Below, piece after piece: positions 30,905-39,456 of a stretch of 64,000 bases of DNA. Location of the stretch: assembly GCA_042568575.1 (NCBI GenBank), contig JBHPIO010000002.1, positions 32,001-96,000 on the forward strand, written 5' to 3'. A program made the position numbers and the translations under genes. Under the pieces are notes generated by a model. That model was not told where the DNA came from, did no database searches, and saw only the letters and a program-made list of their open reading frames with translations. How positions within the stretch are numbered: position 1 is the stretch's first letter; the number at the start of each line of letters is the position of its first letter. The stretch is from Patescibacteria group bacterium (GTDB lineage Bacteria > Patescibacteriota > Gracilibacteria > UBA1369 > PNNO01).

Positions 30905-31945
30905 TTAAAGTTTTTCAGCTTCTACAATGCAGTAAAATGGTTCGATATCAAGTTTTTCACCGAACTGGATATATTCTGTCATTTTTAATCCACATTTTTT
31001 TAAAAATGATTCAGCTGCTGCTTTGGGATCATTTGACATATCTATACCAAATTTCGCAGGCTCTCCCATTTTTTCTATTATACTCATAAATCTTTTAGCT
31101 TCTTTTGAATATTCACCTTCTGCGAATGCTTTGGAATAAAAGTCTTGAGCGATGATACTCCCATCTACACATAAATCAGCCATTTCCCTAAGATTTTCTT
31201 TGACAATATCAGCTTCTAAATATAAAGAAACGCTTTGCCAAAGGAACAAAGTCTTTTTTGTTTTGTCAAAACCAGCTTCTACTAGTTTATCAACCCAGGA
31301 TTCGTTTGCGTAATCAACTGGGATATAGGTGATCCAATCGTGCTCAATTCTTGCTTTTTTCATTGTTTCAACTTTAACGTTTAGTGTGTTAGCCTGGTCG
31401 AGTTCAAAAACCTTCACTTTTTTTCCTTTTGTAAAGTGCAAAGCTATTAGATCAAAGCCAGCTCCAGGAAGGACAATCTGCTCCATTTCATCAACATATT
31501 TTTCCATTATCTTGTCAAACATGAGCACTCGAATACCAGCAGTGGAATCTCCGGTCTCTTTACCTCGTTCAACTAGTTTTCCAAGCAGAGCAGGGAAACC
31601 GGTTAACCTCACTGAAATGATAAGAGCTCCCAGAATCGACCACATACCAAAATGTGATTCACATGGAAACTTTTTTATAAACGCAACAGAAAGAGGATCC
31701 GGTCTGGTATTAAAATAATGCATCATCCACCTATATTGAAGCGCTTTAATTGCCGAGAAGGAGACACCCAGTTTCTTGCTTTTCCTCATTTCCTTGTAAA
31801 TTGCTACTATTATTCCAATAATAGCAAAAGGAATGAAGATTATTTGAATCGATATATAAAGGATGATTTGAAAAAGCTTTATTAAGAAACGTAATATTCT
31901 GGGAAGCTGTTTCTTTTTGTTACCTATCGTTAGATTCTCCTTCAT
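30905..31945 (-). CDS. SAM-dependent methyltransferase (leucine carboxyl methyltransferase-like)
   Basis: QIVLPGAGFDL, VFELDQ and LFLWQSVSLYL; lies just beyond the last att site. Confidence 0.85.
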   Translation of the reverse strand: MKENLTIGNKKKQLPRILRFLIKLFQIILYISIQIIFIPFAIIGIIVAIYKEMRKSKKLGVSFSAIKALQYRWMMHYFNTRPDPLSVAFIKKFPCESHFGMWSILGALIISVRLTGFPALLGKLVERGKETGDSTAGIRVLMFDKIMEKYVDEMEQIVLPGAGFDLIALHFTKGKKVKVFELDQANTLNVKVETMKKARIEHDWITYIPVDYANESWVDKLVEAGFDKTKKTLFLWQSVSLYLEADIVKENLREMADLCVDGSIIAQDFYSKAFAEGEYSKEAKRFMSIIEKMGEPAKFGIDMSNDPKAAAESFLKKCGLKMTEYIQFGEKLDIEPFYCIVEAEKL

Positions 31946-32020: not shown

Positions 32021-32138
32021 ACCTAACGTTCGCAAACTATACGAACTTTGACAGTGATATAATACGCCAAAGGCGAAACACTGGCAAAGTTGGGTGAAGC
32101 GAGTGAAAGGAGCGGAACCAAATAGTTTGCTGTTGTAC
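32021..32138 (-). repeat. attC-like site 1 (118 bp)
   Basis: Plus strand ACCTAAC...GTTGTAC; stems GCAAACTAT/ATAGTTTGC and AACTTTG/CAAAGTT; arm GGTGAAGC..GCGGAACC. Confidence 0.88.
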
Positions 32139-32151
32139 GATGTACCCGCGA

Positions 32152-32427
32152 TTATTTTTTTGAATTTAATAGCTTTTTAATTAGATATGTCCAAACAATA
32201 AAGATTATTGAACCATAAATAATTGAGTTTAATGCAATATATATTGGATTGATGCTTAAGTTGTTTTTTCCACATAAACACCAGTCTATATATAGAGGGA
32301 AGGGAAGGCCATATGCTTTCGTTGTACAGAATTCAAAAAAGTCATTTCTGAAATATAGGGTAGGTAAACTGACCAATAAACCCAAAAAAAGAAATAGAAT
32401 GATTTTAATAATGATATTTTTTTTCAA
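32152..32427 (-). CDS. cassette ORF: small membrane protein
   Basis: 91 aa, TTG start, YGLPFP; fills the space between sites 1 and 2. Confidence 0.65.
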   Translation of the reverse strand: MKKNIIIKIILFLFLGLLVSLPTLYFRNDFFEFCTTKAYGLPFPLYIDWCLCGKNNLSINPIYIALNSIIYGSIIFIVWTYLIKKLLNSKK

Positions 32428-32462
32428 AATTTATTATTTAGTGAATGATAAGTGGGTATGTC

Positions 32463-32565
32463 ACACAACGTTCGGCGCATATACAAAGTTTACATATAGC
32501 GTAGCGGAATGTAAATTTGGGTGGAGCGACCAAAGGGAGCGGAACTGAATATACGCCTGTTAGCT
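32463..32565 (-). repeat. attC-like site 2 (103 bp)
   Basis: ACACAAC...GTTAGCT; GGCGCATAT/ATATACGCC stem; nearly identical to site 9. Confidence 0.88.
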
Positions 32566-32588
32566 GAAGTAATTAAAACAAATTATTA

Positions 32589-32996
32589 TTACTTTGACCA
32601 ATCTTGTGTTTGCCGTTGGCGCATATCAATACTGATCTGTTTCGCTTCTTGTAAATAATGTGGTCTTATCCAGTCAGTATGTTCATCTTTAGAGATTTGA
32701 ACTATACTTCTACCCCCGTAACCAAAACTCTCATCAGGTCGACAGAAGCCAATTACAGTAACTTTATCCCCAAGTTGTATATCTCCCATAAAACATTTTC
32801 TTTCACCATGAGTTATTAATGTCGCGGGCATTCCAATATCAATATGAGGCATCATTTTACCTCTTAAACCAATAATTTTATCGCCTTTATATACAGCTAT
32901 ATCGTATCCATCGATTTGGTGACCTTCAATTCTACGCTCGCAAATACCTTGATCTTCTTGAGGAGTATCTAAATCTTCTCCTTTAAATGTTTCCAT
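32589..32996 (-). CDS. cassette ORF: hypothetical protein
   Basis: 135 aa; has its own consensus promoter. Confidence 0.7.
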   Translation of the reverse strand: METFKGEDLDTPQEDQGICERRIEGHQIDGYDIAVYKGDKIIGLRGKMMPHIDIGMPATLITHGERKCFMGDIQLGDKVTVIGFCRPDESFGYGGRSIVQISKDEHTDWIRPHYLQEAKQISIDMRQRQTQDWSK

Positions 32997-33024
32997 ATTT
33001 AAGGATTAAATTACAAAGGAATTA

Positions 33025-33053
33025 ATTATAAAATAAAATAACAAAAATGTCAA
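33025..33053 (-). promoter_or_regulatory. cassette-internal sigma70 promoter
   Basis: Minus strand TTGACA-17-TATAAT, perfect consensus. Confidence 0.8.
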
Positions 33054-33078
33054 TACCTGCTTAAACATTAATTATTTC

Positions 33079-33213
33079 AGCTAACGTTCGGCGTATATAC
33101 AAAGTTAGCCTGACGAGTGACGGTGATATAATATTCTAATCACCGGAACGAGGAAAGGCTAATTTGGGTGGAGCGACTAAAAAGGAGCGGAACTGAATAT
33201 ACGCCTGTTGTGC
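33079..33213 (-). repeat. attC-like site 3 (135 bp)
   Basis: AGCTAAC...GTTGTGC; GGCGTATAT/ATATACGCC stem. Confidence 0.88.
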
Positions 33214-33230
33214 GATGTGGCAAAATTTGC

Positions 33231-33464
33231 TTATTCCTGTTCCGCTTCCACTCTACGTATATGGACCATGGCTAAACCATTGATCGCCTCTTCAATTTTT
33301 GAAATCACCACCTTAGAACCTTCTTGCCTGTCAGGACCAACGAACAGCGGAAGTACTTCCCCTTGTTCGAATACGCCTTCACTAAATCCTATCGTAACTT
33401 CGCCTTTTTTATCTAATTCATCAAGCTCTTGGCTTTCAAGCCTTACTAGTGAAGTTTTTCCCAT
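33231..33464 (-). CDS. cassette ORF: small acidic hypothetical protein
   Basis: 77 aa; promoter TTGTGC-17-TATAAT whose -35 overlaps the site 4 core. Confidence 0.65.
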   Translation of the reverse strand: MGKTSLVRLESQELDELDKKGEVTIGFSEGVFEQGEVLPLFVGPDRQEGSKVVISKIEEAINGLAMVHIRRVEAEQE

Positions 33465-33517
33465 GTTGCAATTTTGTTAATAAAACAATAGTACATTATA
33501 GCAAATTTTGACATTTT

Positions 33518-33665
33518 GCACAACGTCCGCGGCTTGTACGAAGTTGCCGACGAGCGAGATGGTATAATTTTAAACCATCAAAGCGAGGAAGGCAATTTGG
33601 GTGAAGGCTTTCGGCTGTGCGAAGCCAGTCCGAAAAAGCCTGAACCGGACAAGCCGCTGTTGTAC
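33518..33665 (-). repeat. attC-like site 4 (148 bp)
   Basis: GCACAAC...GTTGTAC; GCGGCTTGT/ACAAGCCGC stem; long second arm shared with site 11. Confidence 0.88.
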
Positions 33666-33681
33666 GATGTAGCGAAAATTA

Positions 33682-33945
33682 TTAAGAAGTTTTGCTTGGT
33701 TTCATCCATTTAATATAACCTCTTAAATACAGAAAAAATAAAACTATGGAAGTTACACCATTTGCTATACTTCCTATTTGAAAGCTAAATATAAAACCGA
33801 CTATTCCTGATATCATTCCTACGACGAAACCAATTTTTTTCTTGTCTCCAAGAAGAAAAATTCCTGCAAAAACCGTTAACGTGACTATCCAATCTACGCC
33901 ATAATACTGGAAAGCATAATGTTTTATTTGTTCCAGAATTCCCAT
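33682..33945 (-). CDS. cassette ORF: 3-TM PnuC/SemiSWEET-like small membrane protein
   Basis: 87 aa; YYGVDW...KKKIGF...RGYIKW. Confidence 0.65.
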   Translation of the reverse strand: MGILEQIKHYAFQYYGVDWIVTLTVFAGIFLLGDKKKIGFVVGMISGIVGFIFSFQIGSIANGVTSIVLFFLYLRGYIKWMKPSKTS

Positions 33946-33984
33946 AGTTTTATTTTATATGAATAATGAAATTTTCGCTATTTC

Positions 33985-34102
33985 GTACAACGTCTGCAAA
34001 CTATACGAACTTTGACAGTGATATAATACGCCAAAGGCGGATCACTGGCAAAGTTGGGTGAAGCGAGTGAAAGGAGCGAAACCGAATAGTTTGCTGTTAT
34101 AT
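33985..34102 (-). repeat. attC-like site 5 (118 bp)
   Basis: GTACAAC...GTTATAT; nearly identical to site 1. Confidence 0.88.
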
Positions 34103-34125
34103 GATGTCGTAAATTCCCGACTCTA

Positions 34126-34563
34126 TTAATCTGATAATGTTTTAGAAAATTTTGTAGAAGCTTCTTGATAACCGAGACCTTTGTAGAAGTCGTGCGCCTC
34201 TGTTCGATCTTTTCTACTTGTGACTTCTATTTTAGTAGAGCCGACTTTTGCTGCCTCTTCTTCGAGCTTTTTTACTAATGTTTTCCCAATACCTTGTCTT
34301 CTGTATTTTTCTTTGACTATTAAAGTAATTATTCGAGCAGTTTTGCCAGTTTCGTATAAAAAGTTGGTGATTTGTAATTGAGCAACTCCTGCAATTTCTC
34401 CTTTGGTTTCAGCAATAATTAGAATTACTTCTGGATTGTCGGTTAGTGCCTCAATTTTGTTACGAGCAAAAGTCGGCGTGTTAGGATATCCAAATTCAAT
34501 TAATAATTCTGCTACGCCTTCTGCATCTTTAATTGTTGCTTCTCTGTAATTGATATCTTCCAT
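34126..34563 (-). CDS. cassette ORF: GNAT acetyltransferase
   Basis: LIVKEKYRRQGIGKTL and AHDFYKGLGY. Confidence 0.9.
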   Translation of the reverse strand: MEDINYREATIKDAEGVAELLIEFGYPNTPTFARNKIEALTDNPEVILIIAETKGEIAGVAQLQITNFLYETGKTARIITLIVKEKYRRQGIGKTLVKKLEEEAAKVGSTKIEVTSRKDRTEAHDFYKGLGYQEASTKFSKTLSD

Positions 34564-34583
34564 AAGATCGAATTTACGATTTC

Positions 34584-34699
34584 ATATAACGTCTAGCACT
34601 ATGCGATGTTTGGCGATGGTAAAATATCACGAAGTGATACCATCGCCAAATATAGGTGTAGCGACTGAAAGGAGCGGAACCGAATAGTGCTTGTTGTGC
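34584..34699 (-). repeat. attC-like site 6 (116 bp)
   Basis: ATATAAC...GTTGTGC; AGCACTAT/ATAGTGCT and TTTGGCGATGGTA/TACCATCGCCAAA stems. Confidence 0.88.
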
Positions 34700-34716
34700 G
34701 ATGTGTTGTGCCCGAC

Positions 34717-35157
34717 TTACTTAATCTTCTTTATGTAATGTACGATTACGTCGTCTTTTTTGAAACCTAAATTTTTGTGAAATTTCTGGCTATCAACGTT
34801 CCTTAACTCTGCGTCTGAGCCGAGCTCTTTGCATCCCTGTTTTTTGGCCCACTTTTCACCTTGTTCCACAAGCTCTTTGGCAACTCCTTGTTTTCTGTAT
34901 TTGGGCTTTACATAAATGCCTTCAACATAGCCGACTGGACTAGATGATGAACCTTGGACATAATCGTTGCGAAGCGAAAGATTGATGAAGCCCAAATACT
35001 CACCCTTTTCATTTTGGGCCAAAAAGTTTGTGTATCTATCTGACTTTGAAAGTGCCTGAAATTCTTTTTTGAGTGTTTTTTTAGCGTGTGGCCAAAGAGC
35101 GAGGCCCATTGATAGCCACTCATTAAAGTTGTCTTCAGAAATTTCACAAAAATTCAT
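34717..35157 (-). CDS. cassette ORF: aminoglycoside 6'-N-acetyltransferase AAC(6')-I-like GNAT
   Basis: ALWP, SLRNDYVQGSSSSPVGYVEGIYV, GCKELGSDA and SQKFHKNLGF; ATG at 35157. Confidence 0.82.
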   Translation of the reverse strand: MNFCEISEDNFNEWLSMGLALWPHAKKTLKKEFQALSKSDRYTNFLAQNEKGEYLGFINLSLRNDYVQGSSSSPVGYVEGIYVKPKYRKQGVAKELVEQGEKWAKKQGCKELGSDAELRNVDSQKFHKNLGFKKDDVIVHYIKKIK

Positions 35158-35186
35158 AGTATTGATGATTAAGGGCACAACATTTC

Positions 35187-35304
35187 GTACAACGTTCGCA
35201 AACTATACGAACTTGCGACAGGTGTAGAATAGCCGAAGGCGGACACCTGAGCAAGTTGGGTGAAGCGAGTGAAAGGAGCGGAACCGAATAGTTTGCTGTT
35301 AGGC
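35187..35304 (-). repeat. attC-like site 7 (118 bp)
   Basis: GTACAAC...GTTAGGC; same family as sites 1 and 5. Confidence 0.88.
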
Positions 35305-35312
35305 GATGTTAA

Positions 35313-35543
35313 TTATTTTTTCCATTTTGCATATGCCCTAGCATTCAATGCTATAAGTATTATATTTAAAATTACACCAGGCCATATATGACCCATATAA
35401 TTTACAGCTATCCATGCGATGTTACCAACAGTGTATATAATAAATGAATATCTTTTTTTGCTACCAACAAGGAATAGAAAAATAAGTGAACCTGCCATCC
35501 CAATCCAATCTAGTCCGTAATAATTTCCCAATATTTCATTCAT
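35313..35543 (-). CDS. cassette ORF: 3-TM PnuC/SemiSWEET-like small membrane protein (76 aa)
   Basis: Likely start MNEILGNYYGLDW; the longer track ORF runs through att site 8. Similar to 33682..33945. Confidence 0.7.
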   Translation of the reverse strand: MNEILGNYYGLDWIGMAGSLIFLFLVGSKKRYSFIIYTVGNIAWIAVNYMGHIWPGVILNIILIALNARAYAKWKK

Positions 35544-35561
35544 ATAAAAATAATTAATGTT

Positions 35562-35689
35562 GCCTAACGGCCATGAATAACTGAAGTTTGGTGGCGGTAT
35601 AATTTGGAGCGGAGCGACATACCACCGCCAAATTTGGGAGAACGAACGAAGCAAAGCGGAGTGAGTGAACCAGTTATTCATTGTTATGT
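35562..35689 (-). repeat. attC-like site 8 (128 bp, divergent)
   Basis: GCCTAAC...GTTATGT; ATGAATAACTG/CAGTTATTCAT stem. Confidence 0.82.
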
Positions 35690-35704
35690 GATGTGACAAT
35701 AGGG

Positions 35705-36343
35705 TCACTTTGTTAAATGCTCAATCGCTTTTTTCAGTTGTCCGCCAAAATCGTTGTCCATGTTGAGAGCTTTTAACTTGTACTTCTTTGCTTCTTTGTC
35801 AAAAAATTGTCCATAGTAGTTGATCATTTCCGCGATCTTGTTGAGAGTTTCTTTTTCTTTTGTTTTACGAAGAATCCAGTCGTTTGGAGTTGAACTTTTC
35901 TTAAAGTCACGAACCATTTTTTCAACATCAGACTTAAAGAGAAAAAGAACGCAGAAATGTTTACGTCCGTATTTTTTAATTAGCCGAGCTGCAAGTTGTG
36001 GCGTTACATGGTAGCCCTCGACAATATAATCATTGCCATCAGTAATTTCGCAGACGGAAAACATATCTATTGCGTCATAGCTAGACTTGGCCTGCTTAAT
36101 GTAATTATTAGCAATCTGCTTTGGAGTATTGAGTGAATATGTTTCGTCATTAGTTTTGCCCTTTTGAGCATTATGTGGATAGAGTTTATCCATTTCCGCT
36201 TTAGAAGCATATTTTGAAACATATTCACGCGCTACAACTTGCAGCGTATCAGAAGCAACCCACTGAATGCCGAGCTTCTTGGACAATTTTTTGGCAAGTG
36301 TGGTTTTACCACATTTTGGCGGACCGCCGATTAAATAGATCAT
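35705..36343 (-). CDS. cassette ORF: P-loop kinase (2-phosphoglycerate kinase / AAA_33-like)
   Basis: LIGGPPKCGKTT Walker A; YIVEG. Confidence 0.8.
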   Translation of the reverse strand: MIYLIGGPPKCGKTTLAKKLSKKLGIQWVASDTLQVVAREYVSKYASKAEMDKLYPHNAQKGKTNDETYSLNTPKQIANNYIKQAKSSYDAIDMFSVCEITDGNDYIVEGYHVTPQLAARLIKKYGRKHFCVLFLFKSDVEKMVRDFKKSSTPNDWILRKTKEKETLNKIAEMINYYGQFFDKEAKKYKLKALNMDNDFGGQLKKAIEHLTK

Positions 36344-36376
36344 AGTTTTATTTTAGCAAGACCCTATTGTTATTTC

Positions 36377-36477
36377 ATATAACGTTCGGCGCATATACAA
36401 AGTTTACATGCAGCGTAGCGGAATGTAAATTTGGGTGGAGCGACGAAGGAGCGGAACTGAATATACGCCTGTTATAT
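36377..36477 (-). repeat. attC-like site 9 (101 bp)
   Basis: ATATAAC...GTTATAT; nearly identical to site 2. Confidence 0.88.
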
Positions 36478-36493
36478 GAAGCACATTTTTTCG

Positions 36494-36549
36494 TTTGGGG
36501 GCGGCGCAGAGGGGATGGGGGTGAATGCGCCGCCCCCAAACACCTTTTT
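36494..36549 (+). terminator. strong GC hairpin / plus-strand terminator inside the inverted cassette
   Basis: 15-bp stem TTTGGGGGCGGCGCA/TGCGCCGCCCCCAAA followed by CACCTTTTT. Confidence 0.6.
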
Positions 36550-36590
36550 CTTGTTTTACCTATCTGTGATAAGATTGAAAAGCGTTTTGC

Positions 36591-36619
36591 TTGACAAAAC
36601 AATTCTATTTATTTATAAT
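36591..36619 (+). promoter_or_regulatory. cassette-internal sigma70 promoter
   Basis: TTGACA-17-TATAAT, perfect consensus. Confidence 0.8.
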
Positions 36620-36650
36620 TCGATACCATTTACTTTTTAACCGTTTTATA

Positions 36651-37121
36651 ATGGAAACACAACAAGGAAATTCTGCCGAACAATTAGAAGGAAAATCCAC
36701 TCAGGAGCTCTTGGATGCACTATGCGAGGTTCAAAAAATCGAACCTATATTACTAGATCGAGGTCGTGCTTTTTTGAGAGATGTTTTGAGTAAAGAGGAA
36801 AATTTCCCTACAGATAGATTAAATGACTGTCGCGTAAGAGTCGAAGTAAATGACGGTGGTGGTCTCGTTGTTAGAGTGCCGGTTAATCGATTTGAGGTTG
36901 ATGGTAGTACTTTAGATGCTCATCCACTTAAACTTGAAATGAAGGATCAATGGAGTAATTTGCCCGGAGTTGCTCGTGTGGAGACTGATGGTAGTATGAA
37001 TAGTGGAATAATGAATTTAGATGTTTATCTTCAATCCGATCAATTACCTGAGCAAGATTCATCGCAAGCAGTTGAAGAAGTGCAGGAGGTTGTAGGAAAA
37101 GGTCTTAGTCAAAGTGTATAG
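36651..37121 (+). CDS. cassette ORF in inverted orientation: acidic hypothetical protein
   Basis: METQQGNS... (156 aa) downstream of the promoter; the track's TTG start is the -35 box. Confidence 0.72.
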   Translation: METQQGNSAEQLEGKSTQELLDALCEVQKIEPILLDRGRAFLRDVLSKEENFPTDRLNDCRVRVEVNDGGGLVVRVPVNRFEVDGSTLDAHPLKLEMKDQWSNLPGVARVETDGSMNSGIMNLDVYLQSDQLPEQDSSQAVEEVQEVVGKGLSQSV

Positions 37122-37142
37122 TTTCAATGGTTTAATAATAGA

Positions 37143-37175
37143 GATCGGGATTATTTTAATAACTCCGATCTTTTT
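37143..37175 (+). terminator. intrinsic terminator of the inverted cassette gene
   Basis: GATCGGGATTATT/AATAACTCCGATC followed by a T-run. Confidence 0.55.
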
Positions 37176-37216
37176 ATTATGCCCCCCTCTATCAATAAAG
37201 GGAAAAAATGTATTGC

Positions 37217-37339
37217 ATATAACGTTTCGGCATATACGATGTTTGCCAGTGGTATAATACCGCGAAGCGGTTACCACTGGCAAATATGAGCGAAACGACG
37301 ACTGAAAGGAGGAGTGTAGCCGTATATGCCGTGTTAAGT
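37217..37339 (-). repeat. attC-like site 10 (123 bp)
   Basis: ATATAAC...GTTAAGT; CGGCATATACG/CGTATATGCCG and TTTGCCAGTGGTA/TACCACTGGCAAA stems. Confidence 0.88.
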
Positions 37340-37349
37340 GATGTAAATT

Positions 37350-37973
37350 TTATTTTTTCTTTGCTAATACCCACCAATGATATTCGTTATCGCCTGGCTG
37401 TCCTTCATATTCGCTTTCTGTGATTTCAAAACCAGCCTGAGCAATCATTGCCTTATATTTTTCAGGTTCATAATTGCTCCATGCCATTGGTGCTCCGACA
37501 AAATCTTTTTCTATACTTACTTCACTACTTGTACCCAATGTTACTAAAATAACCCCATTATTCTCTAACAAATTATGCATTTTATCAAACAAGGCTTGAT
37601 GTTCTTCGCGCGGAATATGAAAAATAGAGTAAAAGGCGATGATTGCGTGGAAACGCTTGCCGCCAAAATCCGTCTTTGAAAAATCACCTTCAATAAAAGT
37701 TGCATCTGGTACATTTTTCTTCGCTTCGACAATATGATTGGAGGCAAAATCTATGCCGGTTACTTCAAAGCCCTTTTCAACAAGGTACTTGTCGAAAGGG
37801 ATTCCAATACCACAACCCAAATCAAGGACTTTGGCGGCCTTTGGCAAGAGAACTGCCAGGCGATTCAGATATTTCTTTTCCATTTCATTAGGGTCTGAAC
37901 TTACGCGGAAATGTCCAGCGTAGTCGCCTTGTTCATAACCTTCTTTAACGATTTTACGAATATCATTGGTCAT
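37350..37973 (-). CDS. cassette ORF: class I SAM-dependent methyltransferase
   Basis: VLDLGCGIG, VTGIDFA and FYSIFHIP. Confidence 0.9.
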   Translation of the reverse strand: MTNDIRKIVKEGYEQGDYAGHFRVSSDPNEMEKKYLNRLAVLLPKAAKVLDLGCGIGIPFDKYLVEKGFEVTGIDFASNHIVEAKKNVPDATFIEGDFSKTDFGGKRFHAIIAFYSIFHIPREEHQALFDKMHNLLENNGVILVTLGTSSEVSIEKDFVGAPMAWSNYEPEKYKAMIAQAGFEITESEYEGQPGDNEYHWWVLAKKK

Positions 37974-37992
37974 AAAAAATAAAATTTATTTC

Positions 37993-38136
37993 ACTTAACG
38001 GTTGCAAACTATACGAACTTTTTCGCGATGGTATAATAGCGCTTTAGCGCAACCATTGCAAAAAAAGTTGGGTGAGGGCTTTTGGCTGTGCGAAGCCAGC
38101 CGAAAAAAGGCCGAACCGTATAGTTTGCTGTTGTGC
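37993..38136 (-). repeat. attC-like site 11 (144 bp)
   Basis: ACTTAAC...GTTGTGC; GCAAACTATACG/CGTATAGTTTGC stem. Confidence 0.88.
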
Positions 38137-38207
38137 GCTGTTGCGAAATCAAAATTTACCCGAAGGGTAAATAGAAATTTTGGCGACTAAATTATTTTGT
38201 CTAATTC

Positions 38208-38438
38208 TTATTTTTTCGAGGCCATAAGTTCAGTAACTGTTAGTCTTGCTCTAACTAAATTCCGAATTGTTTCTTCTTCAGGCGTTAGTGTTCCTAAGTC
38301 AGCTTTATGGGCGAGAATACTTTGTATGGCACCGGGGAGTTGATCTTCTCTGCCATCAGCAGTTTCTCTGGCTTTTCCATAACCATCTTTGTACCATCCA
38401 AAATTGCCAGATTCGGTTGGACCACCTACAGTAGCCAT
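38208..38438 (-). CDS. first (attI-proximal) cassette ORF: small hypothetical protein
   Basis: 76 aa; candidate promoter TTGCAT-16-TAAAAT (38494-38467). Confidence 0.6.
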   Translation of the reverse strand: MATVGGPTESGNFGWYKDGYGKARETADGREDQLPGAIQSILAHKADLGTLTPEEETIRNLVRARLTVTELMASKK

Positions 38439-38535
38439 ATAATGTTTGATTATGAATTAAGACTATATTTTAGCAGAAGAATATTAATATGCAATATTTG
38501 TCGCCAAAATTTCTGTTCTTTTTTTTCGCAATGGC

Positions 38536-38560
38536 GTACAACTCAGCACTAAGCGTAGTT
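38536..38560 (-). other. attI-like site
   Basis: Core GTACAAC (GTTGTAC on minus) whose left flank is complementary to the right flank of site 11; no branched hairpin follows; about 90 bp from the integrase start. Confidence 0.7.
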
Positions 38561-38634
38561 TACTATAGTTTAGAAGAATTTTAGAGTTTTTTTACAATGT
38601 TTTGGTACGTTCTGTGCGTATTTTAAGTTTTTTT

Positions 38635-39456
38635 ATGAGCCTTAAAAGCCAGTTACTGCTTAGGATGGAGCGCGAGATGATTATTAAGAATTATAGCCCC
38701 AGGACACAGAAAACCTATATGTACTGTATTGAGAAGTATTTGGAGTTTGATTTTGGGGCTGTGCGCAGGTGTGGTTTGGATAAAATTCGGGAATTTCTTG
38801 TGTTGAAGCAGGAAAGTGGCGTTGGTCCTGTTATGAGGAATTTGTATCTTTGTGCCATTAAGTTTTTCTATCGAAGCGCACTGAATCGCCGTAAAACAAT
38901 ACCTATTCCGTATGCTAAACGACCAAAAAGCACGCCTATAACGCTAACGCGCGTAGAGGTACTTCAGATGCTGTCCTACATTAACAATTACAAGCATAAA
39001 TTGATCGTGGCATTGGCTTATGGAGCGGGTTTGAGACTCAGTGAGGTTACAAGTCTGAAAGTTTATGACATTCATTTACTTGATAAGACAATTCTTGTTA
39101 GAAGAGGGAAGGGCGCGAAACGGCGATATACGATTATTCCGGATAAACTATGGTGGAAACTCCGTCTTTATGTGAAAAACAGGGATGCGCACAAGTATGT
39201 TTTTGAGAGTAATAGGGGAGGAAAGTTACATTCACGCACTGTTCAAAAGATTTTCAAAAAAGCTCTCAAGAAAGCCGGCATTGAAAAACAAGCCACGTTT
39301 CATTCGCTCAGGCATAGTTTTGCTACGCATTTGCTCGAAAATGGAACAAATCTGCGATATGTGCAGGCGTTGCTTGGGCATTCAAGTATTAGAACAACTC
39401 AAATTTATACTCATGTTGATGATTGCGCAATTAAGACTGTCAAAAGCCCACTTTAA
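38635..39456 (+). CDS. tyrosine recombinase / integrase (273 aa) with an N-terminal SAM-like domain, lacking the IntI-specific insertion
   Basis: NYSPRTQKTY; catalytic R (GLRLSE), K (GKGAK), HSLRH, LGH and Y (TQIY) are all present. Confidence 0.93.
   Translation: MSLKSQLLLRMEREMIIKNYSPRTQKTYMYCIEKYLEFDFGAVRRCGLDKIREFLVLKQESGVGPVMRNLYLCAIKFFYRSALNRRKTIPIPYAKRPKSTPITLTRVEVLQMLSYINNYKHKLIVALAYGAGLRLSEVTSLKVYDIHLLDKTILVRRGKGAKRRYTIIPDKLWWKLRLYVKNRDAHKYVFESNRGGKLHSRTVQKIFKKALKKAGIEKQATFHSLRHSFATHLLENGTNLRYVQALLGHSSIRTTQIYTHVDDCAIKTVKSPL

What the first reader, a model, noticed from the sequence alone, without database searches (positions are those of the whole stretch)
32132..38542. Every cassette is bracketed by its own 16-25 bp inverted repeat, with a recurring internal mismatch
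Seen: the sequence right of each site's GTT is complementary to the sequence left of the next site's AAC, well beyond the 7-bp core. Examples: GTTAGCTGAAGTAATTAA (32559) vs TTAATTATTTCAGCTAAC (to 33085), 17/18; GTTGTACGATGTAGCGAAAATT (33659) vs AATTTTCGCTATTTCGTACAAC (to 33991), 20/22; GTTAAGTGATGTAAATTTTATTTTT (37333) vs AAAAATAAAATTTATTTCACTTAAC (to 37999), 23/25. The pattern holds for all 11 cassettes, including the one ending at the attI-like core. GATGT opposite ATTTC recurs at positions 8-12. Inference: the crossover is at or near G/TT, each unit has existed as a circle with a long cassette-specific outer stem, and this outer stem may be a recombinase binding arm or a trace of how cassettes are made.
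Basis: partly seen in the sequence, partly recalled or inferred. Interest (0 to 1): 0.8.

Follow-up and report, generated by a model that had tools for sequence, protein, structure and literature searches.

The report
Long cassette-specific stems in an integron-like array
Each gene cassette in this integron-like array of a tiny uncultured bacterium starts and ends with its own matching 18-26 base inverted repeat, a much longer version of the 7-base match known from ordinary integrons, in a system whose recombinase lacks the domain thought to define integron integrases.

Summary
All 11 cassettes (32132-38542) carry cognate terminal inverted repeats of 18-26 nt. At positions 13-22, cognate flanks match 8.73 of 10 and non-cognate flanks 3.12 of 10 (0 of 100000 permutations).

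The pattern recurs in 10 other arrays from related Peregrinibacteria-like genomes.

Duplicated cassettes in a relative place the crossover at the AAC on the left of each site. That is G/TT on the gene-sense strand.

So the two repeats are the halves of the basal stem of the cassette's own attC-like hairpin, split on integration.

- Positions 1-12 are semi-conserved.
- Position 11 is a G.T wobble in 79 of 86 stems. Position 10 is usually T.T or T.G.
- Positions 13 to about 24 are cassette-specific with all four Watson-Crick pair types.

The adjacent 284-aa recombinase groups with integron integrases but lacks their extra domain.

Four classical cassettes checked here show 7-13 bp of the same cognate matching. 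This is therefore a new variant of a known principle, not a new principle. The functional roles (binding arm, clamp, pre-synapsis) are inferred.

The parts
32025..32134 (+). Site A (attC-like, AAC..GTT, 110 nt); distal end of the array
   Evidence: The left flank has no cognate partner in the window.
32132..32469 (+). Cassette A>B. Arms 32132-32149 and 32452-32469 (18 nt). ORF 32152-32427 on the - strand.
32467..32561 (+). Site B (95 nt)
32559..33085 (+). Cassette B>C. Arms 32559-32576 and 33068-33085 (18 nt). ORF 32589-32996 on the - strand.
33083..33209 (+). Site C (127 nt)
33207..33524 (+). Cassette C>D. Arms 33207-33231 and 33500-33524 (25 nt). ORF 33231-33464 on the - strand.
33522..33661 (+). 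Site D (140 nt)
33659..33991 (+). Cassette D>E. Arms 33659-33680 and 33970-33991 (22 nt). ORF 33682-33945 on the - strand.
33989..34098 (+). Site E (110 nt)
34096..34590 (+). Cassette E>F. Arms 34096-34116 and 34570-34590 (21 nt). GNAT acetyltransferase ORF 34126-34563 on the - strand.
34588..34695 (+). Site F (108 nt)
34693..35193 (+). Cassette F>G. Arms 34693-34713 and 35173-35193 (21 nt). GNAT acetyltransferase ORF 34717-35157 on the - strand.
35191..35300 (+). Site G (110 nt)
35298..35568 (+). Cassette G>H. Arms 35298-35320 and 35546-35568 (23 nt). Small ORF on the - strand whose stop codon (35313) lies inside the stem.
35566..35685 (+). Site H (120 nt)
35683..36383 (+). Cassette H>I. Arms 35683-35706 and 36360-36383 (24 nt). 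P-loop protein ORF 35705-36343 on the - strand.
36381..36473 (+). Site I (93 nt)
36471..37223 (+). Cassette I>J. Arms 36471-36492 and 37202-37223 (22 nt). The only cassette with its ORF on the + strand (36591-37121), with a promoter-like site of its own.
37221..37335 (+). Site J (115 nt)
37333..37999 (+). Cassette J>K. Arms 37333-37358 and 37974-37999 (26 nt). Methyltransferase ORF 37350-37973 on the - strand; its stop codon and last codons lie inside the stem.
37997..38132 (+). Site K (136 nt)
38130..38542 (+). Cassette K>L, first cassette next to attI. Arms 38130-38148 and 38524-38542 (19 nt). ORF 38208-38438 on the - strand.
38540..38601 (+). attI-like region: AAC followed by TC and a conserved stretch
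   Evidence: AAC|TC is shared by 9 of 10 arrays; the further motif is shared with the close relatives.
38602..39456 (+). Tyrosine recombinase, 284 aa, an integron-integrase relative without the IntI-specific insert

Best explanation
The window holds an integron-like cassette array next to a tyrosine recombinase. The two inverted repeats that bracket a cassette are the two halves of the basal (outer, 'R-box') stem of that cassette's own attC-like hairpin.

The strand exchange takes place in the AAC triplet on the 5' arm of the folded + strand, which is the bottom strand relative to the genes. This point lies about 20-25 nt inside the hairpin rather than 7 nt as in classical integrons. On integration the 5' half of the stem therefore ends up at the far end of the cassette. 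In the excised circle the halves meet again and make one long hairpin: outer stem, 5/2-nt asymmetric spacer, 9-bp covarying L stem, and a branched variable part.

Inferred roles:
- Positions 2-12 (TT R N R Y G N T G T opposite A T K N C R Y N Y A A) form the roughly 11-bp recombinase arm.
- The near-invariant G.T wobble at position 11, and the T.T or T.G at position 10, exist only in the folded + strand. They may mark strand and structure for a recombinase that lacks the IntI domain which reads extrahelical bases.
- Positions 13 to about 24 are a sequence-free clamp that keeps this blemished arm double-stranded.

Shown: the anatomy, the cognate specificity, recurrence across an order of bacteria, the cassette unit and the crossover region. 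Inferred: circles, strand choice, the binding arm and the clamp.
For: - Cognate against non-cognate pairing.
- Replication in 10 further arrays. The adjacent flank is the best partner in 95 of 121 adjacent pairs overall. Of 116 distinct pairs, 104 pair at 8 or more of the first 9 positions, with a median stem end at position 22 and an interquartile range of 15-24.
- Position 11 is G.T in 79 of 86 stems of 16 or more. Position 10 is T.T in 48, T.G in 19 and other G.T-type wobbles in 2. Positions 13-19 use AT, TA, GC and CG in comparable shares, so pairing rather than sequence is conserved.
- The L stem covaries.
- Sites fold more stably on the + strand in 11 of 11 cases.
- 10 of 11 ORFs lie on the - strand.
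- Duplicated cassettes define the unit as site n + body + the next left flank.
- ORF-less 100-nt cassettes keep the stem, z = -7.05.
- Stems with T.T at position 10 reach further (median 24) than those with T.G (19.5) or a Watson-Crick pair (16.5). Mann-Whitney p = 0.009 and 0.023.
- A homologous recombinase sits at the same end of 8 of 11 arrays.
- Classical rule that cleavage is within 5'-AAC-3' of the bottom strand: PMC5027507, passages read.
Against: - No circular junction, deletion variant or read evidence could be obtained; no sequencing run was listed.
- 22 of the 104 cognate pairs have no extension beyond position 12. The long clamp is therefore not obligatory.
- 30 of 116 adjacent pairs have stems shorter than 16. 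Some of these are probably due to sites the model missed.
- The 3-nt bulge between the R and L stems is on the same arm as AAC. This is the opposite of classical extrahelical bases, so strand choice cannot simply be transferred from IntI.
- The - strand duplexes are only 0.7-1.5 kcal/mol weaker than the + strand ones.
- The excess of G.T over A.C outside positions 10-11 (87 against 36) is inflated, because my stem definition counts G.T as paired.
- The stem-length comparison uses related cassettes that are not independent.
- The covariance model was built from the window's own sites, so the arrays found are biased towards similar sites.
Confidence: 0.7

Rival explanations
1. 'Chain of hairpins'. 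This is a mechanistic extension rather than an exclusive rival. In single-stranded array DNA the cognate stem already forms across the whole cassette. The R arm used for excision would then be made by the cassette's two ends, not by the two flanks of one site. The stem would bring the two recombining sites together and favour clean excision of single cassettes.
For: - Folding the natural contiguous sequence, the closing stem is in the minimum-energy structure of 11 of 11 cassettes.
- It is also there in 8 of 10 two-site array contexts, and in both the minimum-energy and centroid structures of cassette G>H.
- The two flanks of one site match poorly: 1.55 of 4 at positions 4-7 and 3.09 of 10 at positions 13-22.
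Against: - The evidence is thermodynamic prediction only. Loops of 270-750 nt, SSB and kinetics are ignored.
- Classical integrons excise with hybrid R boxes (PMC5371416, passage read), so long-range pairing is not needed in principle.
Confidence: 0.35
2. RNA-level role. In the cassette mRNA (- strand) the 5' leader pairs with the 3' end, to control translation, stability or RNase III processing.
For: - The arms lie in the 5' leader, 23-100 nt before the start codon, and at or over the stop codon in G>H and J>K.
- Promoter-like TTGCCA-17-TATTAT boxes on the - strand inside sites could start such mRNAs.
- - strand duplexes are nearly as stable as + strand ones.
Against: - The conserved G.T at position 11 (79 of 86) becomes a C.A mismatch in the mRNA, and T.T becomes A.A.
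- ORF-less cassettes keep the stem.
- The one cassette with an inverted gene (I>J) has the same stem polarity.
Confidence: 0.1
3. Passive relic of cassette genesis, for example fold-back copying when a gene is joined to a hairpin, with no present function.
For: - Each stem is unique to its cassette. In two cassettes part of the stem is the end of the coding sequence, so one arm could have been templated from the other.
Against: - In two cross-genome homologous cassette pairs the flanks are 91-95% identical and the bodies 83-89%.
- The stems keep a position-specific blemish at 10-11 in 11 arrays.
- Stem length correlates with the kind of blemish.
- All of these points indicate maintenance.
Confidence: 0.1
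4. Terminal inverted repeats of small transposon-like elements that inserted between pre-existing repeats.
For: Inverted repeats at both ends of discrete units.
Against: - Beyond position 12 the repeats share no sequence between units.
- There is no transposase in the units.
- The unit that moves includes the neighbouring site.
- The array sits at a recombinase with an attI-like junction in 8 of 11 arrays.
Confidence: 0.03

Closest known systems
Classical integrons (IntI, attI, attC cassette arrays)
   Same: - Recombinase gene divergent from an array of short, mostly promoterless cassettes.
- Sites are imperfect palindromes bounded by AAC...GTT, with conserved structure and variable sequence.
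- Each cassette owns the site at the 3' end of its gene.
- The crossover lies in the conserved triplet.
- The start of a cassette is complementary to the outer end of its own site. The classical R box is 7 bp (PMC5027507 and PMC5371416, passages read). Four classical cassettes read by eye here match for 7, 9, 12 and 13 bp.
   Different: - Cognate stem typically 19-24 bp.
- Near-invariant G.T at position 11 plus T.T or T.G at position 10.
- A 3-nt bulge on the AAC arm instead of extrahelical bases on the opposite arm.
- Sites carry a conserved GGGTG...GGAGCGGAAC stretch.
- The recombinase lacks the IntI-specific domain and scores below the IntI cut-offs.
Xer recombination of folded single-stranded CTX phage DNA
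   Same: A Xer-type recombinase without an IntI domain exchanges one strand between a folded single-stranded hairpin and a double-stranded site. Replication then finishes the reaction (abstract of PMC3442271 seen in the listing; the rest is recalled).
   Different: That system has one phage site and no cassette array. It uses host XerC and XerD at dif. Here a dedicated recombinase sits beside an array of dozens of sites.
Archaeal XerA / dif
   Same: The best-scoring NCBIfam model is XerA_Arch (220.8 bits, cut-off 220). The best solved relatives are the two XerA structures. The arm of about 11 bp resembles Xer arms (recalled).
   Different: In the tree the protein groups with IntI, not with the Thermoplasmata XerA-like proteins. 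The genome has other Xer-like genes. The sites are 93-140-nt structured repeats, not a single 28-bp dif.
pdif modules of Acinetobacter plasmids (recalled, not tested)
   Same: Discrete gene modules bracketed by inverted recombinase sites that are used by Xer-type recombinases.
   Different: Those brackets are the same conserved 28-bp site for all modules and act as double-stranded DNA. Here the brackets are unique to each cassette and complementary to each other.

Membership tests
Integron (IntI-attI-attC) | Integrase carries the IntI-specific additional domain around patch III | tested here: not met
   Against IntI4 (2a3v), query residues 16-207 align to 3-199 and 208-284 to 241-317, so about 41 residues are missing. 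The IntI models hit in two stretches. The CPR relatives are 269-316 aa and the three classical IntI 319-346 aa.
Integron (IntI-attI-attC) | Integrase passes the curated IntI model cut-offs | tested here: not met
   TIGR02249 scores 195.2 bits against a cut-off of 265. PRK15417 scores 129.9 against 435. 0 of 21 related genomes are over the cut-off.
Integron (IntI-attI-attC) | Integrase belongs to the IntI clade | tested here: inconclusive
   In a 33-row tree the 15 CPR proteins form a clade (99/98). This clade joins 3 classical IntI and 2 other proteins (98/97), apart from the XerA-like and Xer rows. The order inside that group is unresolved, the root is the midpoint and the sample is small.
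Integron (IntI-attI-attC) | Array of cassettes separated by structured sites bounded by AAC...GTT, with structure conserved and sequence variable | tested here: met
   11 sites in the window. The 9-bp L stem shows GC, CG and AT variants at the same pairs. The site family is found in 59 of 101 genomes of the order.
Integron (IntI-attI-attC) | The cassette is a gene plus its own site at the 3' end; the crossover lies in the conserved triplet of the bottom strand | tested here: met
   Homology blocks of duplicated cassettes begin at the left AAC(G) and end at the next AAC. 10 of 11 ORFs are on the opposite strand. The resolution is a few nucleotides. The cleaved strand is inferred.
Integron (IntI-attI-attC) | Extrahelical bases on the arm opposite the AAC triplet of the recombined strand | tested here: not met
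   The only constant unpaired bases near the core are 3 nt on the AAC arm of the + strand. Instead there is a G.T / T.T blemish in the outer stem.
Integron (IntI-attI-attC) | attI next to the integrase gene, receiving the first cassette | tested here: met
   The first cassette ends with its cognate arm + AAC, followed by TC. Pairing is 20 or more of 22 positions in 7 of 10 arrays.
Integron (IntI-attI-attC) | Integrase-catalysed excision and integration of cassettes | not testable with these tools
   Only comparative evidence of movement is available: the same cassette occurs in different neighbourhoods.
Xer/dif chromosome dimer resolution (XerA) | Score over the XerA model cut-off | tested here: met
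   NF040815 scores 220.8 bits against a cut-off of 220, so it passes only just. NCBI names this model 'site-specific tyrosine recombinase/integron integrase'.
Xer/dif chromosome dimer resolution (XerA) | Acts at a single 28-bp dif site | tested here: not met
   The gene sits at the end of an array of 11 structured sites, and in the same arrangement in 8 of 11 arrays.

The most novel reading that the evidence does not exclude
Peregrinibacteria-like bacteria carry a separate, order-wide lineage of integrons whose integrase never had, or has lost, the IntI domain.

In this lineage strand and structure would be read from a long R arm bearing a fixed G.T/T.T blemish 10-11 bp from the crossover, not from extrahelical bases.

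That R arm would be formed by the two ends of the cassette itself. Single-stranded arrays would then fold into a chain of alternating cassette stems and site hairpins, in which substrate and product sites are both fully paired, and single cassettes would be pre-synapsed for excision.
Probability: 0.3. Interest if true: 0.8.

Novelty: new variant of a known kind. Interest (0 to 1): 0.62.

Why it matters
Integron integrases are held to need their special domain for the single-strand pathway (abstract of PMC4792948; PMC9668308 passage). Here an integrase relative without that domain sits at cassette arrays that show comparative signs of cassette movement. These arrays are found in more than half of the sampled genomes of one order of ultra-small bacteria.

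The long cognate stem with a fixed wobble gives a concrete, mutable candidate for how such an enzyme recognises folded DNA. It bears on how integrons arose from Xer-like recombinases.

Practically, the cognate repeats give a simple rule for delimiting cassettes in these genomes. They could also offer orthogonal structure-specific recombination sites.

My searches of the held library found no description of integrons in this group. The only hits were resistome surveys.

Tried and rejected
- **Rfam:** no family matches the sites (only four weak, unrelated hits).
- **Partner for the left flank of site A:** none in the window. The methyltransferase gene at 30905-31945 is therefore outside the bracketed cassettes.
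- **Compensatory changes between homologous cassettes:** 13 homologous pairs were found, but their stems are nearly identical. This test gave no covariation signal. The covariation evidence rests on unrelated cassettes instead.
- **Classical control through genomes behind five other recombinase hits:** no IntI was found.
- **Automatic detection of classical attC by a fold filter:** failed. I read four classical cassettes by eye instead. Four is a small sample. One further Shewanella cassette pair showed no clear partner and was left out. L114 gave no readable array.
- **Sequencing runs:** none was listed, so no read evidence on circles or deletions was obtained and read laying was not used.
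- **Supplements of papers:** not opened. The attC tables of PMC9668308 and PMC5371416 could bear on how common long R stems are.
- **Chance, and 'the two flanks of one site pair with each other':** both rejected.

Rows dropped before counts:
- Sites where AAC(G) or GTT could not be located: 3 of 37 in G001 and 1 of 11 in L016, and 9 of 85 in L105-L112.
- 5 of 121 duplicate flank pairs.
- 2 short or secondary rows removed from the tree.

Full report
**What is there**

Window 32025-38542 holds 11 repeated sites. Each runs from an AAC to a GTT and is 93-140 nt long. A twelfth AAC lies at 38540, 62 nt before a 284-aa tyrosine recombinase gene on the + strand at 38602-39456.

Between the sites lie units of 271-753 nt, and 10 of these 11 units carry an ORF on the - strand. 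The ORFs include two GNAT acetyltransferases, a methyltransferase, a P-loop protein and small proteins without a family.

The window's other genes include UvrB, a DinG-like helicase, a hybrid histidine kinase and a V-type ATPase. The genome is 1.2 Mb. The titles of the nearest public relatives place it among Patescibacteria / Peregrinibacteria-like bacteria. A covariance model of the sites finds only these 11 in the whole genome.

**The observation**

I took the 30 nt to the right of each GTT and the reverse complement of the 30 nt ending in each AAC. In every one of the 11 units, the right flank of site n matches the left flank of site n+1 for 18-26 positions.

Shuffling the partners gives these results:
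- The match at positions 13-22 is cassette-specific. It is 8.73 of 10 for cognate flanks, 3.12 for non-cognate flanks and 3.09 for the two flanks of one site. None of 100000 permutations reaches the observed sum.
- Positions 4-7 are also cassette-specific (3 of 100000).
- Positions 8-12 are a motif shared by all cassettes (9974 of 100000).

Other measures agree:
- Duplex energies are -17.9 against -6.4 kcal/mol.
The array context gives -26.0 and other chimeras give -27.0. The cognate junction is the best of 12 in 10 of 11 cases.

**It is a property of a family, not of this window**

The same site model finds arrays next to homologous recombinases in related genomes. One of these is an array of about 24.5 kb with 37 detected sites, in a complete 1.37-Mb chromosome. 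Across a sample of the order, 59 of 101 genomes and 49 of 73 genera have at least one site at E <= 1e-5.

I examined ten further arrays. Adjacent flanks pair at -11.8 to -20.4 kcal/mol, against -5.9 to -7.3 for non-adjacent ones. Over all 11 arrays the adjacent flank is the best partner in 95 of 121 cases.

Among the 116 distinct pairs:
- 104 pair at 8 or more of the first 9 positions.
- The stem ends at a median position of 22, with an interquartile range of 15-24.
- 22 have no extension beyond position 12.
- 86 stems reach 16 or more.

In the 86 stems of 16 or more:
- Position 11 is G.T in 79.
- Position 10 is T.T in 48, T.G in 19 and other G.T-type wobbles in 2, and a Watson-Crick pair in 14.
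- Positions 13-19 are over 85% Watson-Crick, with all four pair types in comparable numbers.

**Where the crossover is**

The large array contains several cassettes in two or three copies, set in different neighbourhoods.

In 10 within-genome comparisons (9 in G001, 1 in L109) the block of 87-100% identity begins at the AAC(G) on the left of a site. It covers that site, the right flank, the body and the next left flank, and it stops at the next AAC. Identity is 35-55% further to the left. Where the next site was available (9 of 10), identity there is 61-89%. An eleventh within-genome pair, in L016, agrees on the left side only; its right part lies in a stretch where a site was not located.

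So a cassette is C + site + GTT-arm ... arm-AA. It owns the site at the 3' end of its gene, as in classical integrons. The exchange happens in the left triplet.

In classical integrons, cleavage is between A and C of 5'-AAC-3' on the folded bottom strand (PMC5027507, passages read). By analogy the + strand is the recombined strand here. Three observations agree:
- The + strand is the bottom strand for 10 of 11 genes.
- All 11 sites fold more stably on the + strand.
- The fixed G.T can pair only on that strand.

It corresponds to the + strand AAC, not to the + strand GTT.

**What the repeats are**

Put together, the two repeats are the halves of the outer stem of the cassette's own hairpin. The exchange point lies 20-25 nt inside that hairpin, and this separates the halves. 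That a cassette's start is complementary to the outer end of its own site is the known logic of integrons. The R box is described as 7 bp, and in arrays its variable 4 bp need not match (PMC5027507, PMC5371416; passages read).

As a small control I read four classical cassettes by eye, on a Shewanella plasmid and on a Pseudomonas plasmid. They gave cognate matches of 7, 9, 12 and 13 bp. The present stems are about twice as long as the longest of these, and they carry a fixed blemish. The difference is one of degree plus a new feature. With a control of four it needs a proper survey.

**How it may work (inferred)**

Positions 2-12 are semi-conserved and have the length of a Xer-type arm. They are the likely recombinase arm.

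The blemish at 10-11 exists only in folded + strand DNA. It is a candidate mark of strand and structure.

The variable positions beyond 12 would hold this arm closed. In line with this, stems with T.T at position 10 reach a median of 24, those with T.G 19.5 and those with a Watson-Crick pair 16.5 (Mann-Whitney p = 0.009 and 0.023). The cassettes compared are related, so these p values overstate the case.

ORF-less cassettes of 100-112 nt keep the stem (z = -7.05 for one of them). This argues against a role tied to gene expression.

In two cross-genome homologous pairs the arms are 91-95% identical and the bodies 83-89%.

**A bolder variant**

Folding the natural contiguous sequence puts the long-range closing stem in the minimum-energy structure of 11 of 11 cassettes. 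The same holds for 8 of 10 two-site array contexts.

The two flanks of one site barely match. In single-stranded arrays the R arm may therefore be supplied by the cassette's own ends. This would give a chain of cassette stems and site hairpins, which would pre-align the two sites that must recombine. The idea rests on thermodynamic prediction only.

**The recombinase**

- It scores just over the XerA model cut-off and below the IntI cut-offs.
- It lacks the roughly 41 residues of the IntI-specific domain when aligned to IntI4.
- In a 33-row tree, 15 CPR proteins form a clade. This clade joins three classical IntI and two other proteins with 98/97 support, apart from XerA-like and Xer rows. The branching inside that group is open and the root is arbitrary.
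- A homologue sits at the same end of 8 of 11 arrays.
- The first cassette ends with its cognate arm at an AAC|TC junction in most arrays.

**Limits**

- There is no direct evidence of circles.
- The models use DNA nearest-neighbour energies without proteins.
- The site model was trained on the window. Some 'adjacent' pairs probably skip undetected sites.
- The classical control is tiny.

**Literature**

Searches for integrons in Peregrinibacteria, Patescibacteria or the candidate phyla radiation returned only resistome surveys and unrelated papers. Archaeal integrons are reported to keep the IntI domain (PMC9668308, passage read).

**Verdict**

It is a new variant of a known principle, set in an undescribed integron-like lineage.

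Noticed in passing
window 32087-32059, 34051-34023, 37283-37254, 38061-38033, 33595-33567, 33223-33196 (- strand); 32055, 33124, 33560, 34019, 37250, 38029 (+ strand): The variable hairpin of most sites holds a sigma-70-like promoter on the gene-sense (- strand): TTGCCA, 16-18 nt, TATTAT, matching 9-10 of 12. It points into the next cassette. The same sequence reads TGNTATAAT on the + strand; 6 of the window's 9 matches lie in sites, against 3.2 expected. Each site may drive the downstream cassette, unlike classical arrays that rely on one Pc promoter.
   Followed up: partly
window 32091-32118 and the same place in sites B, C, E, F, G, I: A conserved stretch, GGGTG.AGCGA...AAGGAGCGGAAC, lies on the 3' side of the sites. 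In sites D and K a GC-rich hairpin is inserted between GGGTGA and GAAC. Its function is unknown; it could be a second protein-binding element.
   Followed up: no
window 37263-37273, 34634-34644, 35236-35244 (site hairpin tips): The inner hairpins end in C-GAA-G or C-AAA-G triloops. Such loops are known (recalled, not tested) as unusually stable DNA mini-hairpins. This fits folding as DNA rather than RNA.
   Followed up: no
window 36471-37223: Cassette I>J is the only one with its ORF on the + strand. It has a perfect TTGACA-17-TATAAT box at 36591-36619 and a GC-rich hairpin at about 36498-36538 (read by eye from the sequence). Its arm sequence resembles that of long cassettes in three other arrays.
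   Followed up: partly
L095:6486-6585 (- strand) and two more copies in the same array: A 100-nt ORF-less cassette is present three times. It consists of little more than the closing stem and inner hairpins, and each copy is preceded by the same 214-nt site.
   Followed up: yes
L108, L109, L110, L111, L112 (e.g. L108 oriented 8827, 10379): In some cassettes of relatives, cognate pairing stops at position 9. The right flank then continues like the 3' half of a site (GGGTGAGCG... or CCCGACGAC...). These may be composite or truncated sites.
   Followed up: no
window 38543-38601 and the same region of L015, L016, G001: The attI-like region after AAC|TC is conserved among close relatives (..ACT.AGCG.AGTTTA..). 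It contains a repeated TAGTTTA that resembles the L-stem sequence of the commonest site type.
   Followed up: partly
G001:C1:1183965-1208471: The array of a related complete genome spans about 24.5 kb, roughly 1.8% of a 1.37-Mb chromosome. It has at least 37 sites and several duplicated cassettes.
   Followed up: partly
window 30905-31945: A SAM-dependent methyltransferase gene lies directly left of site A and is not bracketed. No partner for the left flank of site A exists in the window. The array ends here.
   Followed up: yes
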